NCBI GenBank assembly: GCA_963762565.1
Contig: CAVXLD010000012.1
Location: 352,001 to 416,000, forward strand
Direction: 5' to 3'
Length of the DNA stretch: 64,000 nt
From: an uncultured Verrucomicrobiae bacterium
GTDB lineage: Bacteria; Verrucomicrobiota; Verrucomicrobiia; Chthoniobacterales; JAFAMB01
The number at the start of each line of letters is the position of its first letter. The first letter of the stretch is position 1. The notes under the pieces are model-generated. The model was not told the DNA's origin and did not search any database. It worked only from the letters and a program-made list of their open reading frames with translations. Below, one piece after another: positions 2,679 to 16,787 of the stretch. The translations under genes and the position numbers were made by a program.

Positions 2679-3752
2679 ATGCAAAAGCTCCACTATCCGC
2701 CCCCTGGTTCGGCGCCCACGGCTGTGACTGTCCCCCCCGGATCGGAAAGCCATCCAACCCAAATCAAACTCATCGAATACGACGCTCACTCTTTCGTGGA
2801 GAAACAGGTGGGTGCAGTGGGCGAGCTCTTGGATTCGCTCGAAAACCAAAAGGTTACCTGGGTAAATGTTGAGGGATTAGGTTCGGTAGACCTGATCCAA
2901 GAGATCGGACGGCTTTTCCAGATCCATCCTCTCGCCATTACGGATATTTTGACTCTTGGCCAGCGGCCGCACGTGGACGCTTACGATCGGCAGATTTTTC
3001 TGTTGCTGCAGATGGTCTACCACGACCAGGAGCTGGAGCTGGTGTTTGCACAGCTCAGTATCCTTATCGGCGAACGCTTTGTGCTTACCTTTCAGGAGGA
3101 GCCAGGCCACGATGTATTTGAGCCGGTACGCAGCCGCCTTCGGGAAGGCGCCGGTAACGCGCGGTTTCTTCGCAATGATTATCTGGCTTATACCCTGATT
3201 GATACCGTCATCGATCATTATTTCCCGGCGGTGGAGAACATTGGTGAAGCGATCGAAGGATTGGAGGAGACACTTCTGGAAAAACCGACCCGGGAGAATC
3301 TCCGGCAAGTGCACGAAATCCGGGGCGCTTTAGCCGTGTTGCGGCGCGCTGTCTGGCCGCAACGCGATGCCCTATTGCGGTTGTGGCATGACGAAAGCGG
3401 CCTGCTTTCCGACCGGACCAAACCGTTTATCCGCGACACCTACGATCATGCGCTGGCGCTGATTGATCTTCTGGAAAGCTATCGGGACGCCACTGTGAAT
3501 TTCATGGAGCTTTACATTTCCGGCGTCACTATGCGCACAAACGAGATCGTCCGGGTTTTGACTGTGATCTCCGCGATCTTCATCCCTCTAACTTTCATTG
3601 CTGGAGTGTACGGGATGAATTTTGACCGGAGTCGCAGTGTATTAAACATGCCGGAACTCGGGTCTCCGATTGGTTATCCGGCCGTTCTGTTACTGATGGC
3701 TGCCGTCGCCGGCTCTATGGTGTTGTATTTTAAGCGGAAACACTGGCTGTAG
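2679..3752 (+). CDS. corA: Magnesium/cobalt transporter CorA
   Basis: C-terminal IFIPLTFIAGVYGMNF and MPEL motifs. Confidence 0.95.
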   Translation: MQKLHYPPPGSAPTAVTVPPGSESHPTQIKLIEYDAHSFVEKQVGAVGELLDSLENQKVTWVNVEGLGSVDLIQEIGRLFQIHPLAITDILTLGQRPHVDAYDRQIFLLLQMVYHDQELELVFAQLSILIGERFVLTFQEEPGHDVFEPVRSRLREGAGNARFLRNDYLAYTLIDTVIDHYFPAVENIGEAIEGLEETLLEKPTRENLRQVHEIRGALAVLRRAVWPQRDALLRLWHDESGLLSDRTKPFIRDTYDHALALIDLLESYRDATVNFMELYISGVTMRTNEIVRVLTVISAIFIPLTFIAGVYGMNFDRSRSVLNMPELGSPIGYPAVLLLMAAVAGSMVLYFKRKHWL

Positions 3753-3783
3753 GGGGAGCGTGCCGGCGTATCGGCGTCATGAG

Positions 3784-3903
3784 GGGAGGGCGCGCGTCCC
3801 CGCGCGCCGTGGAACAGGTCTGCTTCGGTGAAATAGCCCGGCACTTCGATCGGGCCTATAAGGGGCTTCGGTCACAGCGGATCGCGGGGACGCGCTCCCT
3901 CCC
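3784..3903. repeat. REP-like inverted pair, family C
   Basis: gggagggcgcgcgtccccgcgcgccg ... cggatcgcggggacgcgctccctccc; also 16817-16939 and a half copy at 21671. Confidence 0.75.
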
Positions 3904-4298
3904 CACCCAGGGGGCTGACCGTTCCCGGGGGCCCTCCTCAGTGAGCTTTCTGCTCGCTTCTGGGCGTCTTACCCGTTATTCAATTAGAACGTAGCCCGAG
4001 AAGGGTGCTGGCGGCTGGTGGACCCATGGTCTTCCGGTGCTGGCCCGGCGAGCATGGTTTGAGTGCCTTAACCGGTGCTTACCAATCGGCGGAGCTCTTC
4101 TCTAATGTTGAAACACGGAAAATATGCCCAGGCCCGGATGGCTAGCGATAGAACGGTTTGCTGATTCGGCGAATCTCAACCTCGCCACGGCTTTTCGTTG
4201 GCCGGAAGGCAATGACCCGTAAACTATCAAAAGCAGATTAACCAACGCCGGAAGTCTGTCGGCAGCCAAACCGAACCTCTCCATTCCAACCAAACACT

Positions 4299-4550
4299 AT
4301 GTTACACTTCCTTTGGTATATCATAATCGGCTTCATAGCTGGTTTCATCGCAAAATCGGTTATGCACGTTCCAGCGAACTGGATCGCATGTATCATCATC
4401 GGCCTAATCGGATCGATCGTTGGAGGTCTCGTTGCGAGATTGTTCTCCAAACCCGCGGACGGGTCGCCCATTCATCCTGCTGGTCTCATTCTCTCGATTA
4501 TTGGGGCAATTGTCATTTTGTGGGTCGGCGAGCTCGTCCACATCATCTAG
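4299..4550 (+). CDS. GlsB/YeaQ/YmgE (transglycosylase-associated) membrane protein
   Basis: IIIGFIAGFIAK...IGLIGSIVGG...SIIGAIVIL pattern. Confidence 0.85.
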   Translation: MLHFLWYIIIGFIAGFIAKSVMHVPANWIACIIIGLIGSIVGGLVARLFSKPADGSPIHPAGLILSIIGAIVILWVGELVHII

Positions 4551-4657
4551 TTTAGGCGGTTTGCTTTACCACTGCGGCCGCAGTTCCGAGCGGCCGCAGC
4601 GCTGAGTCGCCCGGTCGCCTTGTCGCTTTGTCGCCTTAGGCTCCTCAGCGAATAATC

Positions 4658-4754
4658 AATAGCCGATAGCCAATAGCCGACAGCCGGTGGCTCTGAAACA
4701 GGGACTCAGTCTTCTTTAAAAAATATTGGCTATCGACTATTGGCCATTGGCTAT
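4658..4754. repeat. Inverted heptamer micro-repeat (AATAGCC/GATAGCC)n
   Basis: aatagccgatagccaatagccga ... ttggctatcgactattggccattggctat; related motifs at 50821-50960. Confidence 0.7.
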
Positions 4755-4831
4755 GCCGAACGAGCCTCAGCGAACGAGGCCCAATTTTGCGCTTGCGAAT
4801 CACGGGTCAGAGCATACTTTACGGGCTCCTT

Positions 4832-5041
4832 ATGCCAAAACCGATCTCTCGACGTAAGACGAAAAAGGCGGTAGCCAAGCGCTTTAAAGTGACTGGCACC
4901 GGGAAAGTCCTGCGTAGCCAAGCGGGCCGGCGGCATTTGCTCCAATCCAAGAGCGCCAAGCGGAAACGTCATCTCGCTAAAACTGCGGTCTTGGATCGGA
5001 CAGACGAGGCAAGGATTAAAGAGAATCTTCCTTTTGCTTAA
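4832..5041 (+). CDS. rpmI: 50S ribosomal protein L35
   Basis: MPK...KTKKAVAKRFKVTGTGK...RHLL. Confidence 0.95.
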   Translation: MPKPISRRKTKKAVAKRFKVTGTGKVLRSQAGRRHLLQSKSAKRKRHLAKTAVLDRTDEARIKENLPFA

Positions 5042-5195
5042 CCGCGAAAGAAAGTCTCGCCGCGCGTAGTGACACGGCGGCGGGAGCTGTTGCCCACCTA
5101 CCGAAACTATTTCGGAGACTGACAGGCGAGGTCGGGGGACAGTTGACAATAACAACTGCCTGTCTATGAGGCGCCCGAAACCCGGGCGATAGTGA

Positions 5196-5567
5196 ATGCC
5201 GAGAGCAACCAACGCTCCAGCTAGTAGAGAACGCCGTAAACGAGTCCTGGATAAAGCCAAAGGCTACCGGGGACGGCGCTCCAAACTTTTCCGGTACGCT
5301 AAAGACGCGACCAGGAAGGCCCAGTATTGGGCCTACCGGGACAGAAAAACGCGGAAGCGAAATTTTCGCAATCTGTGGATTCAGCGAATTAATGCAGCTT
5401 GCCGCGACCAGGGAACGACCTATAGCCGGTTCATAGAGGGGCTGGCTGCTGCCAACATCGCGGTTGACCGAAAAACTTTGGCCGATCTCGCCGTGCAGGA
5501 CCCGGCCGCGTTTAAGTCGATTTTCGATCGGGCGGCTGAGGCGCTGCAGAAAAAGCACGCAGCCTAA
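5196..5567 (+). CDS. rplT: 50S ribosomal protein L20
   Basis: KAKGYRGRRSK, YAYRDRK-like WAYRDRK, LWIQRINAA. Confidence 0.97.
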   Translation: MPRATNAPASRERRKRVLDKAKGYRGRRSKLFRYAKDATRKAQYWAYRDRKTRKRNFRNLWIQRINAACRDQGTTYSRFIEGLAAANIAVDRKTLADLAVQDPAAFKSIFDRAAEALQKKHAA

Positions 5568-5657
5568 GCGCGAATTGCGCCCAATCGCATGGGCGCCGAT
5601 TACTGTGCTAGGGTTCAATAGTCGTGGCGCCCATTCGATTTGGGCGCAATTCGCGCT
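5567..5657. repeat. Long hairpin filling the rplT-pheS spacer
   Basis: agcgcgaattgcgcccaatcgcatgggcgcc ... ggcgcccattcgatttgggcgcaattcgcgct. Confidence 0.8.
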
Positions 5658-6671
5658 ATGGAAAACGAACTGGTCAAATTCAAGGAAAGTGCTCTAGCGG
5701 AAATCGAAGGAGCTAAGACTCCAATCGAGCTGGATAGTGTCCGCGTTAAGTATCTGGGCCGCGCCGGTCTTATCTCGAAGCTCAGCGAGAGCATGCGGGA
5801 TGTTCCCAAGGAAGAACGGCCCCGGTTAGGGAAGCTGTTGAATGAGGTTCGATTGACGTTGTCAGGGGCTTTCGAAGCCCGGGCTGAGGCGTTCGCTACC
5901 CAGCACGACTTGGCGGCGATTGAGGATATCGACGAAACTTTACCGGGGACACCTCTACGAATCGGCTCGCTTCATCCGCTAACCCAACTCCAAGATCGTG
6001 CTATTCAGGTGTTCCGCCGTTTAGGATTCGCCTTGGCTGCAGGCCCGGACATTGACACAGAGTGGAATTGCTTTGATGCCCTAAATACTCCGCCGAATCA
6101 TCCGGCCCGCAATGAGACCGATACGTTTTATCTTTTTGATGGGCGTTTGCTCCGGACTCACACCTCGACGGTCCAAATCCGTACAATGTTAGCGGTGCCG
6201 CCGCCGGTGAGGGTGATCGCTCCCGGGGCAGCCTATCGCCGGGATGAAATGGATGCCACCCATCTTAGCCAGTTCAATCAGCTCGAAGGTCTTTATATCG
6301 ACAGGAAAGTGACTGTAGCCGACCTGAAAGGCACACTGGAATATTTTGTGCGCGAACTGCTTGGTTCGCAGGTCGAGACTCGGATGCGCCCGCATTTCTT
6401 TCCCTTCACCGAACCGAGTTATGAATTGGACGTTCGCCTTCCCGGGGTCAATGCCGGACGGTGGATGGAACTCCTGGGTTGCGGGATGGTAGATCCAAAC
6501 GTCCTCGAGAAAGTCAACGAAGGAAGGGGCGATCGCGCCTATGATCCGGAAATTTTCTCGGGATATGCATTCGGCATGGGTCTGGACAGATTGGCGATGG
6601 CCCTCTTTGCTTTGCCCGATATCCGTTTGCTGATCGAAAACGATCAACGGTTCTTAGCCCAATTCTCGTAA
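5658..6671 (+). CDS. pheS: Phenylalanine--tRNA ligase alpha subunit
   Basis: HPAR..DTFY, LLRTHTS, FPFTEPS, GCGMV, GYAFGMGLDRLAM. Confidence 0.97.
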   Translation: MENELVKFKESALAEIEGAKTPIELDSVRVKYLGRAGLISKLSESMRDVPKEERPRLGKLLNEVRLTLSGAFEARAEAFATQHDLAAIEDIDETLPGTPLRIGSLHPLTQLQDRAIQVFRRLGFALAAGPDIDTEWNCFDALNTPPNHPARNETDTFYLFDGRLLRTHTSTVQIRTMLAVPPPVRVIAPGAAYRRDEMDATHLSQFNQLEGLYIDRKVTVADLKGTLEYFVRELLGSQVETRMRPHFFPFTEPSYELDVRLPGVNAGRWMELLGCGMVDPNVLEKVNEGRGDRAYDPEIFSGYAFGMGLDRLAMALFALPDIRLLIENDQRFLAQFS

Positions 6672-9081
6672 TGAAGCTTTCGCTTAACTGGCTCCGAGAG
6701 TACTTGCCGGCGTTAGACCGCTCATCTGAGGAGATCGCGGATGCTCTGACCTTCACCGGAGTTGAGGTCGAAGGTGTCCATGTCCATGGAGCCGGTATTG
6801 AAAAGGTCGTAGTCGCTCAGATTGAATCTTTTCAACCGCATCCCAATGCGGACCGGCTTAGCGTTTGCCGGGTTTGGGACGGTTCCAAGGCACCGAGACA
6901 GATTGTTTGTGGAGCAAAGAATTTTCAGGCCGGAGATAAGGTGCCTTTGGCGTTGCCCGGCGCGGTATTGCCGGATGGGACCAAGATCAAGGCTAGCAAA
7001 CTTCGGGGCGTTGAGTCTGAAGGGATGCTTTGCAGCGAACGAGAACTCGGTTTTTCTGATGAAGCCAGCGGGCTAATGATCCTCGATCCTGGAGCGCCGA
7101 TTGGAGCTGCTTTGGGGGACCTTTTCCCACCTGACACAATTTTTGATCTCAGATAACACCGGATCGGCCGGATCTGTTGAGCTATGTTGGTTTGGCACGT
7201 GAATTAGGCATCATTTTCCAGCTACCCGGTTTTAACCTGCCGGACGCTTCGAGTGCTGGCGTCGCCAAGCCGGTTTCCGATCCCAACCAGGTTCGAATCG
7301 ACGCGCTACAAGCATGCCCATTCGCTGTTTTTCATGAGGTCCGAGACGTTACGGTTGGTCCAAGCCCAGATTGGATGCGTCGTCGGCTCGAAGCCGCCGG
7401 GCTCCGTTCCATCAACAATATTGTCGATGTTACGAACTATGTGATGCTCGAGACAGGGAAGCCGATTCACGCTTACGATTTGAGCAAGCTTGCCTTGCCA
7501 ATCATCATTCGCTTTGCCCGACCCGGAGAAAAGCTGCTTGCCTTGGACGGTAAAACTTACGAGTTGAGCCCACCGCATCTGATTATTGCGGATTCGGCGA
7601 AAGCGATCGGCCTGGGCGGTGTGATGGGCGGAGAAGACACTGGAGTTTCTTCTGGAACGACGACGGTTCTAGTCGAGAGCGCCTATTTCGATCCCGGATT
7701 GACTCGAAGTACCAGCCGGGGATTGGGCTTAATTTCGGATGCGAGTTTTCGATTCGAGAGAGGCGTGGATCCGAAGTCGGTCTTGTTTGCCGCTCAAAGA
7801 GCGGTCCAATTGATTAAAGAGGTCGCCGGTGGTACGGCTTCGACTTCAATTTTGGTGGCCGGGGAAGAGCCAAAGAACGAACGCCAAGTTTTATTCCGGC
7901 CGGAACGCTGCACCGACATTCTCGGCTCAGAAGTGCCCGATGCGACGCTGATTCTTCAGAGAATCGGTCTTGAACCTGCCGCCAAGGATTACTGGAAGAT
8001 TCCCAGCTATCGTCTCGATCTCAGCGCGAGATCGATTTGATCGAAGAAGTGAGCCGGTACTACGGCATCCAGAAGCTTCCCGGTCGCCTGCAAGGAAGCC
8101 CTACGACCAGCTCTCTGATCGATATCGCTCATGATGATGCGATGCTCTGCGCCGTAAACTCGAAGGTCTCGGTCTGGCCGAGGCTCGAACCTTGGTCTTT
8201 CTCGACGAGCCCTCACTGAAGAACGGCCTTGGACCGGTGGGGGAAACGCTGCAATTGCGGAATCCGTTGGCGGAAGATCAACAATGCTCCGCCCGTCTCT
8301 GATACCAGGTTTGTTGCGGGCGGCCAAACGAAACTTGAATGGGGGCGCCCATAGTGTGCCTTGTTCGAACTTGGAAAGGTTTTCGTCCCTATGGACTCGT
8401 CGCGCCATAGTCCCGCGCCCGAGGAGAGGCGGACCTGTCGCGCCGTAGCGAAGCGGAGGCGGAAGAATCGACGAAGCTGGCAATCTTGCTTTCGGGGGAG
8501 AACGCCGTTCCTTCATGGAATCAAACTAGCCGCGGTTACGATTTGTTCGATGCCAAGGGCATTTTGGAGACGGTTTACGGTTCTGGTCTTCAAACCCAGC
8601 GGATTGTTCCAATGATCTCGCCGCCCTAATTTGCGAGCTGGTCTCTAACGGTCGTAGGATCGGATATCTGGGATTGGTCAGGCCGCGTCAAGCACGTGAA
8701 ATGGGGGCAAAAAGCGCGGTGGTCCTTGCTGAGGTCCAATTACCGACCGCAGCAGCTGGTTCGGCTTTCAAGCTCAAGCCGCTTCAGCGATTCCCTGCGG
8801 TTACGCGCGACATCGCTTTCGTGGCGCCGCGGTCGATGCATTGGGGAGAAGTGGTTGCGACACTGAATTCGGCGGAGAATCGTTATTGGTCGATGTCCAG
8901 GTTTTCGATCTTTTTATCGATCCCAGCGGGCAAAAAGTGCCGGCCAATAAAAAATCATTGGCCTGCAGTTTGACTTATCGGCTGCTGATCGGACCTGACC
9001 CAAGATGAAGTAAACGAGGTTCATCAGCGATTGAAGAAACGGTTGGTTGATGAGCTCGGTGTGAATTTACCAGAAGGATAG
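6671..9081 (+). CDS. pheT: Phenylalanine--tRNA ligase beta subunit, split by several frameshifts (probable sequencing indels)
   Basis: MKLSLNWLREY, HPNADRL, IVCGAKN, SEGMLCS, INNIVDVTNYVMLETG, RFERGVD, LFELGKVF, RFPAVTRDIAF across successive frames. Confidence 0.93.
8394..8463 (+). repeat. Two tandem copies of dispersed repeat family E inside pheT
   Basis: gacctgtcgcgccgtagcgaagcggaggcgga (8432-8463) is 28/32 identical to the reverse complement of intergenic 46416-46447; related copy at 32515-32546. Confidence 0.75.
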
Positions 9082-9160
9082 TTCTTTAAAAACGTAGACG
9101 CGTTCCGTTCCGCGATGGCGGCGGAAACAACTTTGCCCTGCGGTGCTCGGGATTTAAGGC

Positions 9161-9312
9161 AATTGCCCCAGCCCCGATATAAATATCCCAAGGAGGCTAG
9201 GTCGTGCGCGGTTAATGACAGGCCTTGATTGGAAGTCAGAAACGTGCCGGCGGTGATCCACCCTTGCTAAGGGGAATGGGAGCTTCGCCTAATCGGCATT
9301 AGTGGGGCAACT
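9161..9312 (+). ncRNA. ssrS: 6S RNA (ssrS) candidate
   Basis: ~150-nt rod: ttgcccca/tggggcaa closing stem, ccgat/atcgg, unpaired central bubble, tccca/tggga, caagg/ccttg, gcgcg/cgtgc, tgac/gtca; lies just downstream of pheT; no ORF. Confidence 0.55.
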
Positions 9313-9318
9313 TATACG

Positions 9319-9360
9319 ATAGGCGCCTCATTGTTCTACAAAGGCGCCTATGGTCTTTTT
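9319..9360 (+). terminator. Hairpin plus T-tract after the ncRNA candidate
   Basis: ataggcgcct-N-aggcgcctat followed by ggtcttttt. Confidence 0.5.
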
Positions 9361-9380
9361 GGGTTCACGGTTCGCAGTTC

Positions 9381-9483
9381 ACGGTCGGATCTGGCCGGGT
9401 GCCGGCTCATTACGAGCACTCGATCGCTCAGCAGGATCGCTTCGTCCACGTCGTGGGTGACAAACACAATGGTCATCTTCAAG
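9381..9483 (-). pseudogene. Remnant of an ABC transporter ATPase (TauB/SsuB-like H-loop region)
   Basis: Minus strand reads [29 protein letters not shown]; no Walker A or signature motif nearby. Confidence 0.7.
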
Positions 9484-9745
9484 GGGCGGCTTTCGCGAGC
9501 GCATGACGCGTGCCCGGCTCCAGCAACGTCGCCACGATGCGGCGACCAAAAGCGATCGCCCGCCCAAGAAGCGACAGACCCAACACCCCCTATAAGTCAT
9601 ATAGGTCCTATAAGTCCTATTCGCCCTGGCCGCCCTACCGCCCACTCCTCTCGCCAAGCTCTTTCCTGAGGCCTGTGCTTGATTTGTCTTATGCCGGCTT
9701 TTCTGTATGTGAAGCCTCAATGAAAATCGACCAAACGTGCAGGAA

Positions 9746-10561
9746 ATGAGGATATACGCGCTGGTAGCGATCGGCGGCGGACTCGGCAGCTTGCTCCGCT
9801 TCGCTATTTCTCAGTGGATGGCTCCAATGCCGGTCTGGTCCCCTTTATCGATTCTCATGATCAATGTGAGCGGATGCTTCCTGATCTCTTTTCTGAATTT
9901 TGTTTCCGATCCGACCGGTGAAATCTACCTGGGACCGAATATTCGCGTTTTTCTCATGGTCGGTGTCTGCGGCGGTTACACCACGTTTAGCACCTTTAGC
10001 CTTATCTCCTTTAATGCTCTACGTCATAATACGGTGATAGATTTATGGCTAAACATTGGCCTGTCGCATCTCCTTTGTTTGTTGGCTATTTGGGTTGGCG
10101 CCCTCGTTGCGTTCGGCCTTCCCCGGGCAGTTGCGGGGGGGTTGTCTTCGCAGCTAGATGCAATCCAACAAAACATGCTGGCAATTATTTTAGTATTTAT
10201 CGGCGGCGCGCTAGGTTCTATCTGGCGGTTTTGGTGGTCCGGCTGGGTCGCGGAGCGATTCGGAGAGACTTTTCCTTTCGGCACATTAGTCGTCAATGTC
10301 GTCGCATCGGCTTTGCTCGGACTGGTCTCAGGGCTGATACTCCGCCTAGGCGCCACGGACACTGCCGCGGTATTACAACAATTTATTTCAGTTGGCGTCT
10401 GCGGCGGATTAAGCACCTTTTCGTCGTTCAGCCTGCAAACCTGGAACCTGCTGATGGAAAGACGGTGGATAGCCGCCATCACAAACATAATTGTTTCAAC
10501 TGCGGTCTGTTTCGCGTCGATCGCGCTTGGATGGCAGGCTTCTGTTAATGCTCATCTATAA
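9746..10561 (+). CDS. crcB: Fluoride channel Fluc/CrcB, two domains in one ORF (second starts at ATG 10175; may be two genes)
   Basis: Two copies of the Fluc pattern: GGGLGSLLRF..NVSG..GVCGGYTTFSTF and GGALGSIWRF..GTLVVN..GVCGGLSTFSSF. Confidence 0.92.
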   Translation: MRIYALVAIGGGLGSLLRFAISQWMAPMPVWSPLSILMINVSGCFLISFLNFVSDPTGEIYLGPNIRVFLMVGVCGGYTTFSTFSLISFNALRHNTVIDLWLNIGLSHLLCLLAIWVGALVAFGLPRAVAGGLSSQLDAIQQNMLAIILVFIGGALGSIWRFWWSGWVAERFGETFPFGTLVVNVVASALLGLVSGLILRLGATDTAAVLQQFISVGVCGGLSTFSSFSLQTWNLLMERRWIAAITNIIVSTAVCFASIALGWQASVNAHL

Positions 10562-10576
10562 TCGAATCATGCGCAT

Positions 10577-10924
10577 ATGGAACTTTCTCAAGACGCGCTG
10601 CTTTTAAGAATCTTCATCGGCGAAAAAGACGAATATGAAGGGCAACCGCTCTTTAAGGCTCTGGTCTTAAAGGCGCGCGAGCTGCATTTAGCTGGTGCGA
10701 CGGTTTTCCGCGGTCCTTTGGGGTTTGGAAGGTCAAGCCACCTTCATAGCAGCGGGATTCTGCGTCTATCGTTCGACCTGCCCATGGTGATAGAGATTGT
10801 CGACACAGAAGAGAAGGTCCAGAGCTTCGTGGCCCAAATTGAAAGCATGGTCGGCGGCGGTCTGATTACCGTCGAACGGGTGCAGGCAATCTTCTACAAG
10901 GGCCGCGGGGAGAGTGATGGCTAG
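10577..10924 (+). CDS. DUF190 domain protein (PII-like, CrcB-associated)
   Basis: LLRIFIGE, LAGATVFRGPLGFG, LSFDLPMVIEIVD, GLITVE. Confidence 0.9.
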   Translation: MELSQDALLLRIFIGEKDEYEGQPLFKALVLKARELHLAGATVFRGPLGFGRSSHLHSSGILRLSFDLPMVIEIVDTEEKVQSFVAQIESMVGGGLITVERVQAIFYKGRGESDG

Positions 10925-10931
10925 CCAAGGA

Positions 10932-10970
10932 GAAGGCGGATCCGCGCTACCAGAGCGCGGATCTGCCTTC
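10932..10970. terminator. Hairpin between convergent DUF190 genes
   Basis: gaaggcggatccgcgct-acca-gagcgcggatctgccttc. Confidence 0.6.
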
Positions 10971-11364
10971 ACTTTAGCTCGTGCTGATATCGAATGATCT
11001 GCGCGCGCTCTATGGTGATCAGCCCTCGCTGCATCATCTTCCGGAGCTCAGGCAAGAACTCCTGGATCGTATCTGGCGTGTCCACGATCTCCACAATCAT
11101 AGGCAAATCGAGAGAAAGCCGCAGGATGTTCGCGTTATGGAGATGATGGGAACGGCCAAATCCCATCGGACCCCGCAATACCGTAGCGCCTGCAAGCTTC
11201 AACTCCCGTGCCCGAAGCACGATGGCCTTGTAAAGAGGGCGGTGATTGTACTCCTCGGCCTCTCCGATAAAGATACGGAGCAAGAGGCATTCTTGCGGTA
11301 GGTCGCGCGTCCGCCGAGAAGGCAACTGTCCGGGGGAAGATGCAGCCTGAGGGGTAGTGACCAT
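10969..11364 (-). CDS. DUF190 domain protein
   Basis: LLRIFIGE, LAGATVLRGPMGFG, LSLDLPMIVEIVD. Confidence 0.9.
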   Translation of the reverse strand: MVTTPQAASSPGQLPSRRTRDLPQECLLLRIFIGEAEEYNHRPLYKAIVLRARELKLAGATVLRGPMGFGRSHHLHNANILRLSLDLPMIVEIVDTPDTIQEFLPELRKMMQRGLITIERAQIIRYQHELK

Positions 11365-11469
11365 AACGGGAATAAATTCCCTGAGCGGTTCACCGACACC
11401 CTCACGAGATCTTAGGTACGAGTCTAAATAGCACGGGTAGCTGAAGCAAATTTGACACTGTGCAATTGT

Positions 11470-11811
11470 CTACTCGGCTTCATCAAATAGATCGACTACT
11501 TGCGCTTTCTCCAAGGTGATCAACCCGCTCGGCATCATCTGCTCGAGTACTGGAAGAAAAGCGTTGATCTTCTCCGAGCTGTCTACAATCTCGATGACCA
11601 CTGGTAAATCGGATGAAAGCCTCAGCGGATTCGCCTGATGAAGTCGACTCGATTTCCCGAACCCGAGGGTGCCATGTAAGACCGTAGCGCCGGCTAGCTG
11701 CAACTCGCGCGCCTTCAATACGATGGCCTCAAACAGTGGGCGATGGTGGAACCGGTTTTTATCGCCGGTAAAGATTCGCAATAGCGTTGACTCATCCGGA
11801 GGTGCAGCCAT
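11470..11811 (-). CDS. DUF190 domain protein
   Basis: LLRIFTGD, LAGATVLHGTLGFG, LSSDLPVVIEIVD. Confidence 0.9.
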   Translation of the reverse strand: MAAPPDESTLLRIFTGDKNRFHHRPLFEAIVLKARELQLAGATVLHGTLGFGKSSRLHQANPLRLSSDLPVVIEIVDSSEKINAFLPVLEQMMPSGLITLEKAQVVDLFDEAE

Positions 11812-11973
11812 ATCCAACGTTAACCTTATCGGAGCCGAGCCACCGGTTCAAGCTGACAACAGAACCGGCGACCGAGCAAAAAAATGATCTTCACTCAGCA
11901 ATACGCAATACCGACCTGCTCCGCGTTGTTAATTCCAAGCCTGCAAGCGGCGCTCTAACCCCAATTCCGAATA

Positions 11974-13491
11974 TTATACACCTGAGGGCTCTCCAAATAT
12001 CTGGTTATAGAGATCTTCTCCGTAACTGGTCTCCAATGGTTCGGCTTCGACTAACTTAAACGTGCGAGTCCCATCGCTTTCTCTTTCCGCCCGTAAAAAA
12101 AGTATATTTTCCTGTTTTGTTGCATGGAATCCAGAGGCAAACGTATACTGATGGCTTACAAAAAAGATTTTAAACCCCTTTTCGATCAAAGCCGACACAA
12201 TCTGCCTTGCAATCTCCGATCCTTCTCGTTCGTTCGTAGCGGCAAACGATTCGTTAAATAACAATATCGAATCCGGGACCAAATGTTCTGCGATCTCGCT
12301 CATTCTGGTTAGTTCTTCATCGAATTTCCCGCTCTTCATGCTTGCGTCCTCCTCGCGCTTGAAGTGAGTAAACACGCTCGGACACATATTGGCCGAGAAA
12401 GACTCCGCCCCGACGAACATGCCCGCCTGCATCATCAATTGAGCCAGACCGACGCTCCGCAAAAACGTGGACTTTCCTCCCTGGTTCGCACCCGTAACGA
12501 TAATAAGATCTTTTTCGTCTGCGTCGACGTCATTTCCGATCACTCTCTGTCGCAAACGCAACGATAAGCAGACATCGTACAGTCCACGAAAAGAATGCTT
12601 TCGTTCGGTTGCAGGGACTGGCTCCGGCCAGCAGATCGGCTCCCCCTTTTTCGCCAGTTGTTCCCGCAGATTCAGGCAGCTAACATAGAACGCCAGTTCG
12701 GCTCTCAACATCTTGAAGAAATTCAGGATATGATCCGTAGATTGCGCTAGCGCGTTCGCTACCAGGTTAATCCCCCGTTCGTTCAGCTCAGATAAGGCTC
12801 TGGCACCGTTTTCGTCACGGGGATCAAGAACAAACGTGTAACCGGCCTCTCTTATACCAAAGTACTGCTGAAGCCAGGAAATAATCCAATGCTGTTTGAT
12901 TCGCGCCTTCCTGAGGATATAGTTCCTTCCCTTATTACCTTTCCCCAGCTGCGCACTGATCAAGACGCCGGCGCGGAATTTCATTTCCTTTAGATGAGCC
13001 TTTATGCTGGCGAAATATTCGTCGGTTAGTTCGGCCTCCAGCGTAGCCAATAGATTTCTAAAGCCCTCAGACTGGAATGCTGCGCCGTGCTGCGCCGACG
13101 CTGATCTCAATTTTTGCAGAACTTCGATGAGGTAGTACAACAGCTCGATCGCCCGACCGAGAATCCCAGCTGGATATTTGCTGAAGATACCCCAGGAGCA
13201 CTTTCTCTCACATTGGATTCCTTCTACCGCCAGCGCATAGAGCCCCCGAACGACGGCAGGATTCTTCAGGCAGTCCTGTAGGATACGCTGCCGATACAGA
13301 ATAGTGTCCAAATCGTTGTCCAAGCTGCAGAGGACAACGGATTCAGCTACTCGCAACAGAAACTCATCACCAGTGGCCATCGCGCCGAACAGAGTGTCCA
13401 GTGCCAAGTCCGGCATCAGCGTTTTCTTGCTCCACGGTAGGGTTTGTCCAAAATCAAAGTCGCGGTCTCGAAAAAGCAGAAATGCTTTCAT
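11974..13491 (-). CDS. MutS-related protein (ATPase domain V, no mismatch-binding domain; MutS4-like)
   Basis: IIVTGANQGGKSTFLRSVGLAQLMMQAG, THFKREED, SGKFDEEL, LFNESFAATNEREG, SYGE. Confidence 0.88.
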   Translation of the reverse strand: MKAFLLFRDRDFDFGQTLPWSKKTLMPDLALDTLFGAMATGDEFLLRVAESVVLCSLDNDLDTILYRQRILQDCLKNPAVVRGLYALAVEGIQCERKCSWGIFSKYPAGILGRAIELLYYLIEVLQKLRSASAQHGAAFQSEGFRNLLATLEAELTDEYFASIKAHLKEMKFRAGVLISAQLGKGNKGRNYILRKARIKQHWIISWLQQYFGIREAGYTFVLDPRDENGARALSELNERGINLVANALAQSTDHILNFFKMLRAELAFYVSCLNLREQLAKKGEPICWPEPVPATERKHSFRGLYDVCLSLRLRQRVIGNDVDADEKDLIIVTGANQGGKSTFLRSVGLAQLMMQAGMFVGAESFSANMCPSVFTHFKREEDASMKSGKFDEELTRMSEIAEHLVPDSILLFNESFAATNEREGSEIARQIVSALIEKGFKIFFVSHQYTFASGFHATKQENILFLRAERESDGTRTFKLVEAEPLETSYGEDLYNQIFGEPSGV

Positions 13492-15071
13492 GGTTCCATG
13501 CGCGCTTTCAATTGCTCGAAAGTGAGCCCATGTTTTTCAGCAAGGGACAGCGCGTACGAGAGTCCGGCGGCCGGCTTTCGCAAAACCTTAAAAGTCCTTA
13601 TTGTCGGGTCTTGCGGATCAACCATGCTAACCAAACTCACTACCTGCTGGGAAAATGAAGCTAAGTCGTCGACGAAGGTTACCCAGACGCACACCGCGTC
13701 TCGCTCGATTATTTTCTCGATTACCTTCTTACTGAGAAACAGCGCGTCTCGAAGAGTTGTGGAGGTAAAAATCTCATTCATGATAATGAGGCTGTTCGAA
13801 GTCGCCTCTTCAGAATTTCATGAATTCTTACTACGTCATCTTGGAGTTTGCCCCGCAGGTTCGCCATGTTTTCTTGCCTCTCGAAATGGGCTAGGATTTT
13901 GTCGAAGAGGAAGACTCGAGACGGGTACCCGGAACTGGACAGCCGATGCTAGCCAAGTAGTGAATCTGGCCAAAAGCACGGGCGAATGTGGTTTTTCCAC
14001 CTGGATTCGGCCCTGACACCACGAATATCCGTTCGGGATCTTTCAGGTAGAAGTCGTTACAAACAGTTCCTGCGTCGTTGATCACTTGCTGATGAGCCAG
14101 GGCCAGGTCGAACCCTTCATAGTTGTAAACCTCTTTGGATCGAGTTGGAGATTTCCGGATAACAAAATTTCAATCCGGTACGTTCAATCAATTCCGCAGT
14201 ATTCGAGATAAGCAAGGTAGAACTGGATCTCGCGATCGAAACGCTCGACGGTTTTATCTATATAGTCGGCGTTGCGGTACGCAGACGATCCAGATAAGTG
14301 AAGTGCCGGATATAAGCAGACGACAGAATTCCAGGATCTTGGCTTCGATCTGATTCATCGACAGGCGGTTCTCAAAATCAACTTATAGTCCTTTACCGCG
14401 CCCTGCTTGAATTTCTCAAACGTCTCTTCGACCTCAGTGCTATAATCGGTCTGGTCGTCATATCTCCGATCGTGAAATTTCCAAGCCGGACATTTACTGT
14501 ATAGGTGATTGACGATAGATCGGTGTTCGGTTTTTGCGCTTCCAGTGTTAGCAACCGGAAGGACTCGGATTCAACGTACGTCTTGAGATAACTCCGGAGA
14601 CCGGTGAAATTATGGACCTAAACGTACCGTTAAGAGCTCTTGAGCAAAGCTGTTAACCGCCTCACAATAGGTTCCCAAGGCGTCCAAAAAACAGCGGCGC
14701 TTTTGATATTGGTAGTACAGCTTGCCTACGGTGGTGAGATGCTCGCGCATTGTCCCCATTTTCGCGGCAAACGATCTCACGGATCGCAATAATCCTGCGG
14801 CCTCCAGATCTTGAAACACCTCATGGCGGTAGGCGATTGCATCAATGTCGCCTAACGGAGTGTAAAAAAACGGTTTCAGCTCGTAGCCGGCCTTGCCGAC
14901 TGTGATGCCGTCCACGATCTGATCAAGATTTAGGTCACGAAAAAAGTCACGAGTGTCTGCCGTCTCCTGATTTATGCCATCCTCGGGTCTCGCAAAGAGT
15001 ATGCTCTGGAAAGCCGGAGAGCTTCCCGTTGTTGTTTCGATCAAATCATCCAGTGTCGCCTCATACTTCAT
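13488..15071 (-). CDS. MutS-related protein (first of the tandem pair), frameshifted
   Basis: [62 protein letters not shown] across frames; ATGA overlap with the next gene. Confidence 0.85.
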
Positions 15072-15105
15072 TGCCCTCCCCCTAGTGTTTGCGAGTTATT
15101 TACAC

Positions 15106-15165
15106 TAGGAGTCATCAGCCCAAACTGGGTGGTTTGCCGTCTCCGGCGAGGCTAACTCCATAGCC
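15106..15165 (-). promoter_or_regulatory. Fluoride riboswitch (crcB motif) controlling the MutS-like pair
   Basis: Minus strand GGCUAUGGAGUUAGCC-UC-GCCGGAGACGGC-AAACCACCCAGUUUGGGCUGAUGACUCCUA: P1 GGCUA/UAGCC, pseudoknot GGAG/CUCC, conserved CUGAUGAC. Confidence 0.9.
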
Positions 15166-15175
15166 TCTTGAGAGG

Positions 15176-15204
15176 AAGCTATGGGATAATCGGGTGGAAA
15201 TCAA
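15176..15204 (-). promoter_or_regulatory. sigma70-type promoter for the minus-strand riboswitch
   Basis: TTGATT-N17-TAGCTT ending 10 nt before the aptamer. Confidence 0.6.
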
Positions 15205-15210
15205 TACCTC

Positions 15211-15239
15211 TTGGCGGGCGGCCAGTGAGGCATTATCAT
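15211..15239 (+). promoter_or_regulatory. sigma70-type promoter for the plus-strand riboswitch
   Basis: TTGGCG-N17-TATCAT ending 6 nt before the aptamer GGCAAUGG. Confidence 0.65.
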
Positions 15240-15245
15240 GATGAC

Positions 15246-15307
15246 GGCAATGGAGTTTGCCGTCATGGCTTCGGCCGGGACATCGCGGTCCTCGCTGATA
15301 ACTCCTG
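15246..15307 (+). promoter_or_regulatory. Fluoride riboswitch (crcB motif) upstream of a P-loop NTPase gene
   Basis: GGCAAUGGAGUUUGCC-GUCAU-GGCUUCGGCC-GGGACAUC-GCGGUCCUCGC-UGAUAACUCCUG: P1 GGCAA/UUGCC, pseudoknot GGAG/CUCC. Confidence 0.87.
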
Positions 15308-15321
15308 TTCATCACCTTCCG

Positions 15322-16008
15322 ATGCACAGAGACCAACTACTCGAAGAACTGCGACGGTTGCATTGCCAGCAAGAGAATGTCTTACTGATCGGGCCGACCG
15401 GAATCGGTAAAACCACGCTTTTGCGGACTCTGAGTGAAACTCTGCCGCTCACAATTTGCGACGAAACGTTCGACCTCGGCCGGCTTTGCGATTGCCTCGA
15501 AAGCCGGATGCGCTGGTCTCATGAGAAATTTAGCATCATCGTTCGCAAGAACCGATTGCTCCGGCATCTGAGAACGCACCCGGATCCAGTCGCGTTCGAT
15601 CATGTGGCTGGAACGCCGCCACGGGTGGCGCGCTTTATTGGGCATTTGCTCGACGATATGCCCGTCTCGATCCGTGCCGTTCCGATCGCCGTCGAGACAT
15701 CGGTCATGTGTGGGAAAATCTCTCCCGGTTCGTTCGAATTGAAGTACCGCCCTTCACAGAGAGTGAGGCAGCACACCTGATTGCGGTTGCAGTTATTCCG
15801 GAAAGATCCAACCAGATGCGGTTCGGCATTGCCGGACCTTTATCGTCTAAGCCACGGTTCACCTCATACTTTGCAAGAACTCATAACCGAGCTCACCACT
15901 CGCAAATACAACATGAGCAGCGCAGCCGGCCTGAGGTTGTTGGAACTGGACCGGAAGATTCACAGACTGAATAATTTTGAGAGGCCGAACCTTTCGGGAG
16001 GGAGGTAG
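15322..16008 (+). CDS. Uncharacterised small P-loop (AAA-like) NTPase, frameshifted
   Basis: ENVLLIGPTGIGKTTLL Walker A, VAFDH Walker-B-like, then FVRIEVPPFTESEA and LYRLSHGSPHTLQEL in other frames. Confidence 0.75.
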
Positions 16009-16103
16009 TCGCTGCGAAGAAAGATTTAGACTGGCCTTTCTGACTCGGTATGCCGACGTCTGCCGACTGGCTGAATGTGGTTCTGAAGTTTAAGGTAAAT
16101 GGA

Positions 16104-16787
16104 ATGTCCTCTTTTTCGTTGATCGACTTCGCGTGTTGGCTGGTCGTGTTCCTTGGCTCAATGACCGCGCATGAGGCGTCTCATGCTTTTGTGGCCAAAC
16201 TTCTCGGTGACCCAACGGCGTATCTTGGCGGCCAAGTCACGCTAAACCCGATCCCTCATATTCGGCGTGAGCCGTTTGGGATGTTGCTGATTCCGATTAT
16301 CTCCTATTTGGCTGCAGGATACATGCTTGGCTGGGCCAGAGCACCGTACAATGCTGCTTGGGCCGGCCGGTTTCCCCGGCGGGCTGCCATCATGGCTCTG
16401 GCGGGACCGGCAGCAAATTTTGTAATCGCGTTGCTCTGTTGGATAGGGCTCAAATTCGGATTAGCAACCGGACTGTTCGTTCCAGGTATCACTGGGCGTT
16501 TTTCTGAAGCGGTCGTTTCATTGGAACCGGGTTTATGGAGCGTCGTAGCGATACTGCTGAGTCTTGGATTCTCGTTGAACCTACTCCTTGGTGTCTTCAA
16601 TTTGCTTCCGGTTCCACCACTTGATGGTAGCGCCTTACCTCTTTTGTTCCTCACTGGAGAGGCTTCTCTAGCCTACCAAAGAATCAGCCGCGGGAGCCTA
16701 GCCTTCCTTGGAATACTCGTGGCCTGGCAAATTTTCCCAAGAATCTATCGCCCTATCTGGTACTGGATGGAGTCGACGCTGAGGTGA
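16104..16787 (+). CDS. Site-2 protease family (M50) peptidase
   Basis: HEASH, GDPTA, LAGPAAN, FNLLPVPPLDG. Confidence 0.92.
   Translation: MSSFSLIDFACWLVVFLGSMTAHEASHAFVAKLLGDPTAYLGGQVTLNPIPHIRREPFGMLLIPIISYLAAGYMLGWARAPYNAAWAGRFPRRAAIMALAGPAANFVIALLCWIGLKFGLATGLFVPGITGRFSEAVVSLEPGLWSVVAILLSLGFSLNLLLGVFNLLPVPPLDGSALPLLFLTGEASLAYQRISRGSLAFLGILVAWQIFPRIYRPIWYWMESTLR

What the first reader, a model, noticed from the sequence alone, without database searches (positions are those of the whole stretch)
15069..15330. Back-to-back twin fluoride riboswitches with divergent promoters
Seen in sequence: a 250-bp intergenic region holds two crcB-motif aptamers in opposite orientation (minus 15165-15106, plus 15246-15307). 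Each has the P1 stem, GGAG/CUCC pseudoknot and CUGAURAC core, plus an extra tetraloop hairpin (GCCG-GAGA-CGGC; GGC-UUCG-GCC). Each follows its own 17-bp-spaced sigma70-type promoter (TTGATT/TAGCTT and TTGGCG/TATCAT). Established: this motif binds fluoride and turns genes on. Inference: both act on translation. On the minus strand CUCCUAGUGU pairs with ACACUAGGGG and covers part of the SD. On the plus strand CUGU-UCAUC pairs with GAUG-C-ACAG and buries the AUG of a gene with no visible SD. Neither switch sits in front of a fluoride exporter.
Basis: partly seen in the sequence, partly recalled or inferred. Interest (0 to 1): 0.9.

Follow-up and report, generated by a model that had tools for sequence, protein, structure and literature searches.

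The report
Divergent pair of fluoride riboswitches
Two genuine fluoride-sensing RNA switches sit back to back in a soil Verrucomicrobia genome and most likely turn on two outward-facing gene sets when fluoride rises; this is a well-known switch in a layout that recurs in relatives.

Summary
The 250-bp gap 15072-15321 carries two crcB-motif aptamers on opposite strands.

- **Minus aptamer (15099-15174):** passes Rfam RF01734 (43.3 bits, cut-off 34).
- **Plus aptamer (15237-15314):** falls just short (31.7 bits, E 5e-7). A model built only from 21 relatives' aptamers scores the two alike (48.7 and 48.5 bits).
- **Mechanism:** neither switch has a terminator. Both have a hairpin built partly from the 3' pseudoknot strand, which covers part of the ribosome-binding site (minus) or the start codon (plus). 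Translational ON control is the best reading.
- **Genes controlled:** the minus switch heads two MutS-like ATPases and two DUF190 genes, next to the genome's only CrcB channel. The plus switch heads an uncharacterised P-loop ATPase.
- **Broken frames:** the frame breaks in both first genes match single-base differences from independent soil contigs, so they are assembly errors.
- **How common:** divergent pairs occur in at least five related genomes. This scan has noted such pairs in at least six other genomes.

Verdict: a real but ordinary new member of a known kind.

The parts
15099..15174 (-). Fluoride riboswitch aptamer (crcB motif), minus strand. P1 starts at 15165. The 3' pseudoknot strand CUCC is 15111-15108.
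   Evidence: RF01734 43.3 bits, above gathering 34. Lineage model R1 gives 48.7 bits.
15136..15147 (-). Extra hairpin between P1 and P2 of the minus aptamer (4 bp, GAGA loop).
   Evidence: Insertion in the cmscan alignment. Folds at -7.5 kcal/mol. An equivalent hairpin is predicted in 24 of 24 lineage aptamers.
15079..15111 (-). Sequestering hairpin of the minus switch. The 5' arm is 15111-15102 (CUCC plus UAGUGU) and the 3' arm is 15088-15079. The 3' arm covers the first four G of the ribosome-binding site GGGGGAGGG (15082-15074). The start codon is 15071-15069.
   Evidence: Present in the unconstrained MFE. Energy is -13.9 kcal/mol with CUCC and -3.9 without.
15237..15314 (+). Fluoride riboswitch aptamer, plus strand. 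P1 is 15246-15249 with 15258-15261. P2 is 15285-15287 with 15293-15295. The 3' pseudoknot strand is 15301-15305.
   Evidence: RF01734 31.7 bits, below gathering, E 5e-7. R1 gives 48.5 bits. The orthologous aptamer before the orthologous gene in G015 scores 36.2 bits.
15262..15281 (+). Extra hairpin between P1 and P2 of the plus aptamer (UUCG loop).
   Evidence: Folds at -9.5 kcal/mol. It is a 16-nt insertion relative to the Rfam model.
15303..15332 (+). Sequestering hairpin of the plus switch. It uses UCC of the pseudoknot strand and buries the AUG at 15322-15324. No purine-rich ribosome-binding site lies upstream.
   Evidence: Present in the MFE. Energy is -8.4 kcal/mol with CUCC and -4.5 without. 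The G015 ortholog goes from -12.4 to -4.4.
15211..15239 (+). Promoter-like site for the plus unit (TTGGCG, 17 nt, TATCAT). It ends 6 nt before P1.
   Evidence: The only consensus hit in 14900-15500. No transcript data.
15176..15204 (-). Weaker promoter-like site for the minus unit (TTGATT, 17 nt, TAGCTT). It ends 10 nt before P1.
   Evidence: 7 of 12 matches, below the scan threshold. No transcript data.
13488..15071 (-). First gene of the minus unit: a MutS-domain-V-like ATPase (MutSL_A). It is read in several frames in this assembly.
   Evidence: Pfam MutS_V on fragments. It is collinear with the intact 514-aa homolog of G014. Soil contigs carry 1-nt indels at the breaks they cover.
11974..13491 (-). 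Second MutS-domain-V-like ATPase (MutSL_B, 505 aa). Its start overlaps the stop of MutSL_A by 4 nt.
   Evidence: PF00488 at 2.9e-20. ORF coordinates.
10969..11817 (-). Two DUF190 genes (11470-11817 and 10969-11364) on the same strand downstream.
   Evidence: PF02641 at 1.2e-36 and 5.5e-38.
15322..16008 (+). Gene of the plus unit: an AAA_16-type P-loop ATPase of about 226 aa. This assembly breaks it with a frame break after 15672, a return to frame near 15800-15835, and an in-frame TGA at 15778-15780.
   Evidence: PF13191 at 5.2e-7, below cut-off. Aligned to intact homologs. Soil contigs carry an extra G after 15672.

Best explanation
Two independent fluoride riboswitches (crcB motif) share an 80-bp divergent promoter region, from P1 at 15165 on the minus strand to P1 at 15246 on the plus strand.

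Each transcript probably starts at or just before P1. Each aptamer has P1, a lineage-typical extra hairpin, P2 and the GGAGU/ACUCC pseudoknot.

**Without fluoride (inferred).** The 3' pseudoknot strand pairs downstream. On the minus strand CUCCUAGUGU pairs with ACACUAGGGG and covers the 5' half of the ribosome-binding site. On the plus strand the strand lengthens a hairpin that buries the AUG of a gene with no visible ribosome-binding site.

**With fluoride (inferred from what is established for this riboswitch class).** The pseudoknot is locked, the sequestering hairpin loses its G-C-rich base, and ribosomes can start. Both are therefore translational ON switches.

**What they control.**
- The minus switch controls two MutS-like ATPases (translationally coupled) and probably two DUF190 genes.
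- The plus switch controls an uncharacterised AAA_16-type ATPase and possibly the M50 peptidase gene behind it.

**Shown here:** aptamer identity, the hairpins, and conservation in relatives. **Inferred:** fluoride binding, ON logic, level of control, and operon extent.
For: - **Covariance models.** RF01734 gives 43.3 bits and 31.7 bits. The independent lineage model R1 gives 48.7 and 48.5 bits. These are the only two hits in the genome.
- **Core pairs.** 96.9% of cells pair across 24 lineage aptamers, against 30-57% when partners are slid.
- **No terminator.** None is found in 14900-15500.
- **Sequestor stability with and without the four pseudoknot bases.** Minus: -13.9 to -3.9 kcal/mol. Plus: -8.4 to -4.5. 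G015 ortholog of the plus switch: -12.4 to -4.4.
- **Same design in relatives.** In 19 of 23 lineage platforms the fold loses stability when CUCC is removed.
- **Orthology of the plus unit.** In G015 an aptamer of 36.2 bits ends 8 nt before the orthologous ATPase start, with the same hairpin.
- **Gene partners fit the class.** The crcB motif is reported upstream of mutS genes (PMC2864571, passages read). DUF190 and CrcB lie in the same cluster.
- **Genes probably intact in nature.** Soil contigs carry 1-nt indels at eight places that fall at or between the frame breaks of MutSL_A and the ATPase.
Against: - The plus aptamer is 2.3 bits below Rfam's gathering score, and its P2 has only 3 pairs in this assembly.
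- When the aptamer through CUCC is withheld from pairing, the plus AUG stays paired (P unpaired 0.01) in a residual hairpin. The minus ribosome-binding site opens only from 0.49 to 0.70. Simple thermodynamics therefore predicts weak switching.
- The plus sequestor in this genome loses only 3.9 kcal/mol.
- Promoters are unverified. Promoter-like matches over 9300-16200 are at chance level (5 found, 5.3 expected).
- No fluoride-binding or expression data exist for this RNA.
- The assembly has indel errors nearby, so single bases in the leaders may be wrong. One extra A in the P2 loop is already seen in contigs.
Confidence: 0.85

Rival explanations
1. Only the minus switch works. The plus aptamer is a decaying relic in front of a dying ATPase gene.
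For: - It scores 31.7 bits, below the gathering score of 34, with a 3-bp P2.
- Its sequestor is weak (3.9 kcal/mol difference), and the AUG stays paired in the bound-state mimic.
- The ATPase reading frame is broken and carries an in-frame TGA in this assembly.
- Relic partners in such pairs were noted elsewhere by this scan (e1-984233, e1-3003411, unchecked).
Against: - The independent lineage model scores it 48.5 bits, equal to the minus aptamer.
- All pseudoknot and core positions pair.
- The G-to-A variant CUGAUAAC also occurs in 5 other lineage aptamers.
- The G015 ortholog passes the gathering score and keeps the same platform.
- The frame break after 15672 is absent from soil contigs of 3 runs, which points to assembly error.
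- The second break and the TGA are not covered by near-identical contigs, so they stay open.
Confidence: 0.1
2. The switches act on transcription (premature termination, for instance Rho-dependent) or on mRNA stability, not directly on translation initiation.
For: - Many fluoride riboswitches overlap terminators (PMC2864571, passage read).
- The thermodynamic mimic of the bound state opens the ribosome sites only weakly.
- Blocking translation can expose Rho sites (general knowledge, not tested here).
Against: - No hairpin followed by a T-run lies in either leader.
- The hairpins' 3' arms hold the ribosome-binding site or the AUG.
- The 3' arms of several relatives' platforms carry purine-rich SD-like runs just before an AUG (read by eye in the printed sequences).
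Confidence: 0.05

Closest known systems
Fluoride riboswitch (crcB RNA motif, Rfam RF01734)
   Same: Same P1, P2, pseudoknot and conserved core. Located in a 5' leader. The expression platform overlaps the 3' pseudoknot strand. Gene partners include mutS-like genes (PMC2864571, passages read). Enolase and formate-hydrogenlyase-like genes appear in relatives' islands (review PMC11139923, passages read).
   Different: A 12-nt or 16-nt hairpin sits between P1 and P2 and is not part of the 64-position Rfam model. Here 51 of 56 hits in relatives are at least 73 nt long. Control appears translational, not by the terminators described as common for the class. The plus switch has no ribosome-binding site and buries only the AUG.
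Back-to-back fluoride riboswitch pairs noted earlier by this scan (e1-4124420, e1-911609, e1-2365630, e1-2369227, e1-3003411, e1-984233)
   Same: Two aptamers on opposite strands in one short intergenic region. The notes mention MutS-like ATPase pairs, dynamin-like GTPases and an extra hairpin (AI notes, not checked by me on their DNA).
   Different: Different genomes and phyla (an acidobacterium and an actinobacterium are named). Here one partner is an AAA_16-type ATPase, and the spacing is tight: 62 nt between the model 5' ends, against 109-181 nt in the five related pairs.
Tandem riboswitches on one transcript (recalled from the literature, not read here)
   Same: Two sensor domains close together.
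   Different: Here the two aptamers lie on opposite strands in separate transcripts. No cooperative or logic-gate behaviour is expected. They are two ordinary single switches that share a promoter region.

Membership tests
Fluoride riboswitch RF01734 - minus aptamer 15099-15174 | Covariance-model score at or above Rfam's gathering score (34 bits) | tested here: met
   43.3 bits, E 1.1e-8.
Fluoride riboswitch RF01734 - plus aptamer 15237-15314 | Covariance-model score at or above Rfam's gathering score (34 bits) | tested here: not met
   31.7 bits, E 5e-7. The shortfall of 2.3 bits comes with a 16-nt insertion and a 3-bp P2. This is a curated cut-off, not a structural feature. The independent lineage model R1 gives 48.5 bits, and the G015 ortholog gives 36.2 bits.
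Fluoride riboswitch RF01734 - both aptamers | P1 and P2 helices plus a pseudoknot between the P1 loop (GGAGU) and the 3' tail (ACUCC) | tested here: met
   All 12 counted pairs form in both window rows, except one A-C in P2 of the minus aptamer.
Fluoride riboswitch RF01734 - both aptamers | Conserved unpaired core (AUGGAGUU loop, CUGAUGAC junction) | tested here: met
   The minus aptamer matches the consensus. The plus aptamer has CUGAUAAC, a variant shared by 5 other lineage aptamers.
Fluoride riboswitch RF01734 - both aptamers | Sits in the 5' leader of a co-oriented gene, with an expression platform that competes with the pseudoknot | tested here: met
   The start codons lie 27 nt (minus) and 7 nt (plus) after the Rfam match. 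The sequestering hairpins use CUCC or UCC.
Fluoride riboswitch RF01734 - both aptamers | Association with fluoride-response genes | tested here: met
   MutS-like genes (PMC2864571), with DUF190 and CrcB in the cluster. For the ATPase family, 10 of 17 loci carry an RF01734 hit within the fetched flanks.
Fluoride riboswitch RF01734 - both aptamers | Binds fluoride and raises gene expression | not testable with these tools
   Needs in-line probing or reporter assays.

The most novel reading that the evidence does not exclude
The plus switch may represent a conserved fluoride-riboswitch platform that has no ribosome-binding site and gates translation only by burying the start codon 8 nt after the aptamer.

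Its target is an uncharacterised AAA_16-type P-loop ATPase family of about 226 aa. In relatives this family sits in one operon with dynamin-family GTPases and enolase. It could be an unrecognised part of the bacterial fluoride stress response.

In this genome the response also looks rewired. The only CrcB channel has no riboswitch, and its block is inverted relative to five same-genus genomes. Both riboswitches of the genome control ATPases instead.
Probability: 0.35. Interest if true: 0.45.

Novelty: new member of a known kind. Interest (0 to 1): 0.27.

Why it matters
It adds a clean, well-supported example of two fluoride riboswitches sharing a divergent promoter region in Verrucomicrobia.

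It shows that a sub-threshold Rfam hit can be a full family member once the lineage's extra hairpin is modelled.

It also points to gene families of unknown role (MutS-domain-V ATPase pairs, DUF190, an AAA_16-type ATPase) that cells switch on with fluoride. None of this changes how the riboswitch class is understood.

Tried and rejected
- **RNA evidence.** No RNA holder was listed for 13400-16100, so promoters, transcript starts and expression could not be checked.
- **Assembly artefact or inverted duplication.** Rejected. The two aptamers differ in sequence, and single soil contigs span both.
- **Pseudogenes.** The broken MutSL_A and ATPase frames first looked like decay. This was rejected as the main reading for two reasons. 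The essential pheT gene nearby is also split. Soil contigs carry 1-nt indels at the frame breaks they cover.
- **A hidden riboswitch before crcB.** A permissive scan of 8900-9800 found none, only a 6S-like RNA. R1 found none genome-wide.
- **A riboswitch before the second MutS-like pair on contig C5.** None at E up to 1.
- **The search for related loci with the ATPase alignment.** It was replaced by the genome search.
- **MAFFT and RNAalifold.** They did not put the extra hairpin in register. It was assessed per sequence instead.
- **Papers.** The 2012 Science paper on fluoride riboswitches was not held, so its gene list is cited only through the review PMC11139923. A 2026 preprint (10.64898/2026.10.21.760802, passages read) uses 'divergent' for sequence divergence, not orientation. 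Searches found no paper on back-to-back fluoride riboswitch pairs.
Full report
**1. Observation**

The gap between the start codon of the minus-strand gene (15071-15069) and the ATG at 15322 is 250 bp. Rfam's fluoride model RF01734 finds one match above its gathering score in the whole window. It lies at 15099-15174 on the minus strand and scores 43.3 bits against a cut-off of 34, E 1.1e-8.

With permissive filters on 451 nt, a second full-length match appears on the plus strand at 15237-15314. It scores 31.7 bits, E 5e-7, and E 1.6e-6 for the whole 6.1-Mb genome. Both alignments show three things:
- a 4-bp P1 with the AUGGAGUU loop;
- the CUGAUGAC or CUGAUAAC junction;
- the ACUCC tail.

Both also carry an insertion between P1 and P2, of 12 nt (minus) and 16 nt (plus).

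To test the sub-threshold aptamer without circularity, I built a covariance model (R1). It used 21 aptamers of related genomes and left out both window aptamers and the closest ortholog of the plus one. R1 scores the two window aptamers 48.7 and 48.5 bits. It finds nothing else in the genome; the next hit has E 0.94. The two aptamers are therefore equally good members of the lineage's fluoride aptamers, and they are the only ones in this genome, which is 93.7% complete.

**2. Quality of the DNA**

The first gene on each side is read in several frames. The MutS-like gene at 13488-15071 changes frame repeatedly. The ATPase gene changes frame after 15672, returns near 15800-15835, and has an in-frame TGA at 15778-15780.

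The essential pheT gene at about 6671-8973 is also split into pieces that carry its tRNA_bind, B3_4 and FDX-ACB domains. Contigs from four soil-metagenome runs in two studies were laid on 13400-16100. They differ from the window by single-base insertions or deletions at 13811, 13925, 14144/14145, 14382, 14468, 14614, 14621 and 15672. These places fall at or between the frame breaks seen.

I conclude that the breaks covered by these contigs are consensus errors of the assembly and not gene decay. Three caveats apply:
- The best holders may come from the sample the window was assembled from.
- The second ATPase break and the TGA are not covered by near-identical contigs.
- The contigs also carry one extra A after 15288/15289, in the P2 loop of the plus aptamer, in 3 of 3 covering runs. 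This would allow a fourth P2 pair. That last point is an inference, because I did not rescore a changed sequence.

No indel was reported in the minus aptamer or in the promoter region. Single contigs span both aptamers (X2 15058-15755, X1 15119-15643).

**3. Surroundings**

The minus unit holds, in order:
- MutSL_A, MutS domain V on fragments;
- MutSL_B at 11974-13491, PF00488 at 2.9e-20, whose start overlaps the upstream stop by 4 nt;
- two DUF190 genes at 11470-11817 and 10969-11364.

This unit meets, tail to tail, a plus-strand pair at 9737-10924: a fused double CrcB channel followed by a third DUF190 gene. The fused CrcB is the only CrcB locus in the genome, and it has no fluoride aptamer upstream.

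The plus unit starts with a P-loop ATPase (AAA_16, PF13191, below cut-off on the truncated frame). An M50 peptidase gene follows 42 nt later.

The ATPase family has 187 relatives at E up to 1e-5 in the large protein collection. They are mostly 226-240 aa, named hypothetical protein or predicted ATPase, and some come from Chthoniobacterales or Udaeobacter MAGs. Record titles of related loci name Verrucomicrobia MAGs.

**4. Relatives**

RF01734 matches occur in 29 of 61 related genomes searched, counting the window's own.

*Same-genus genomes.* The five same-genus genomes each have one aptamer directly before the fused crcB gene, next to the same M50, HIT and NrdR backbone. The backbone is seen in three of the five; the other two contigs end first. 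None has the ATPase (0 of 5) or MutS-like genes at that place. Relative to them, the crcB and DUF190 block of this genome is inverted. The MutS-like pair, the second aptamer and the ATPase are extra.

*Other divergent pairs.* By coordinates, divergent adjacent pairs occur in G028, G015, G014 and G022 (4 of the 60 relatives; confirmed for three of them) and in G298. The gaps between model 5' ends are 109-181 nt, against 62 nt here. Their gene partners vary: MutS-like pairs, enolase, a metallophosphoesterase, formate-hydrogenlyase-like membrane subunits, and unknown small ORFs.

*The ATPase family.* It occurs in 15 of 401 genomes of the order. Of 17 ATPase loci scanned, 10 carry at least one RF01734 hit at E up to 0.01 within the fetched flanks. 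In G015, an aptamer of 36.2 bits ends 8 nt before the orthologous ATPase, which is 55% identical and also starts MHR. It has the same downstream hairpin as here. This supports both the start codon at 15322 and the reality of the plus switch.

**5. The extra hairpin**

All 24 lineage aptamers examined fold a hairpin in the P1-P2 linker. Their sequences differ, and predicted energies run from -0.8 to -14.4 kcal/mol. Of 56 full-model hits in relatives, 51 are at least 73 nt long and 5 are 60-69 nt.

The hairpin is therefore typical of this lineage and not special to this locus. MAFFT did not align it in register, so I give no formal covariation count for it. I could not check whether the published consensus drawing shows an optional stem there, because figures are not held.

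**6. Mechanism**

No intrinsic terminator is found in 14900-15500.

*Unconstrained folds.* The minimum-energy fold of each leader contains P1, the extra hairpin and a downstream hairpin whose 5' arm starts in the 3' pseudoknot strand.
- Minus strand: the 10-bp stem CUCCUAGUGU/ACACUAGGGG covers the first four G of GGGGGAGGG, 5 nt before the AUG.
- Plus strand: an interrupted stem from 15303 to 15332 buries the AUG. No purine-rich site precedes it.

*Effect of removing the four pseudoknot bases.*

| Switch | With CUCC (kcal/mol) | Without CUCC (kcal/mol) |
|---|---|---|
| Minus | -13.9 | -3.9 |
| Plus | -8.4 | -4.5 |
| G015 ortholog of plus | -12.4 | -4.4 |

In 19 of 23 lineage platforms the fold loses stability in the same test, and 4 are unchanged. 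This fits the usual logic of the class. Fluoride locks the pseudoknot, the competing helix is weakened, and expression rises. Here the effect would be on translation initiation.

*Weak points.* In a crude mimic of the bound state (aptamer withheld from pairing), the plus AUG stays paired (0.01 unpaired). The minus ribosome-binding site opens only from 0.49 to 0.70. The size of the switch therefore cannot be argued from thermodynamics alone. Fluoride binding, ON logic and the level of control are inferred from the family, not shown here.

**7. Promoters**

The plus site TTGGCG/17/TATCAT (15211-15239) is the only consensus hit in the region, with 1 found against 0.4 expected. It ends 6 nt before P1.

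The minus site TTGATT/17/TAGCTT (15204-15176) matches only 7 of 12 positions. In 10 of 24 lineage aptamers, a match of 8 or more of 12 ends 5-9 nt before P1 (no shuffle control was run). That is weak positional support for transcripts that begin at P1.

Over 9300-16200, promoter-like matches are at chance level, with 5 found against 5.3 expected.

**8. Comparison and novelty**

The class is known, and its link to mutS-like genes was reported with the motif itself (PMC2864571, passages read). Exporters, enolase and formate hydrogenlyase are listed as common partners in a review (PMC11139923, passages read).

Two switches on opposite strands are two ordinary switches. They are not a tandem device on one transcript. 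The layout recurs in this family. This scan has already noted it in at least six other genomes, with MutS-like pairs, dynamin-like GTPases and an extra hairpin mentioned (AI notes, unchecked on their DNA). My four literature searches found no paper on such pairs.

I rate this a new member of a known kind. The less ordinary points are:
- the start-codon-only platform without a ribosome-binding site, conserved with an uncharacterised ATPase family;
- the fact that in this genome the only fluoride channel lacks a riboswitch.

Noticed in passing
window 6671-8973, 13488-16008: Several genes are split by single-base frame shifts: the essential pheT, the MutS-like gene and the ATPase. Soil contigs carry 1-nt indels at the breaks they cover, so this stretch of the assembly has consensus indel errors.
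   Followed up: yes
window 9132-9312 (+): A 6S RNA-like match (RF00013, 37.7 bits, below gathering 46.4, E 6.2e-6 on 901 nt), followed by a G+C-rich hairpin with a T-run at about 9321-9365. A similar sub-threshold 6S hit lies at L040 222-405 in a same-genus genome (34.1 bits).
   Followed up: partly
window 9360-10924: The genome's only CrcB gene is a fused double CrcB (274 aa, two PF02537 stretches) followed by DUF190. It has no fluoride aptamer upstream, and its block is inverted relative to five same-genus genomes, where an aptamer directly precedes it. By eye, the minus strand at about 9379-9560 reads like the C-terminal remnant of an ABC-type ATPase, possibly a rearrangement scar.
   Followed up: partly
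G000:C5:109635-112723 (L071 2136-5224): A second, intact pair of MutS-domain-V-like genes (514 and 515 aa; 60% identical to MutSL_B) has no RF01734 match at E up to 1 nearby.
   Followed up: yes
L038 (G022:C1:1-20000): Seven RF01734 aptamers lie within 17.5 kb. They control DUF190 pairs, a MutS-like pair, a metallophosphoesterase and formate-hydrogenlyase-like membrane subunits (NADHdh, Proton_antipo_M). This is an unusually dense fluoride island.
   Followed up: partly
L036 (G015:C81) 3644-11757: The ATPase family occurs twice here, each time beside a dynamin-family GTPase (705 aa and 618 aa) and behind a fluoride aptamer. One unit continues into enolase. G000 has only a distant dynamin-family gene elsewhere (25% identity, contig C1).
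   Followed up: partly
L035 3155-3236 (+) and L038 16300-16383 (+): In two of the related divergent pairs, one aptamer is followed by no recognisable co-oriented gene; the next clear gene is convergent. These may be orphan aptamers or may gate small unannotated ORFs.
   Followed up: no
window 15778-15780: An in-frame TGA lies inside the ATPase gene, with homology continuing in the same frame after it. It is not covered by near-identical contigs, so it could be an error, a nonsense mutation or a recoding site.
   Followed up: no
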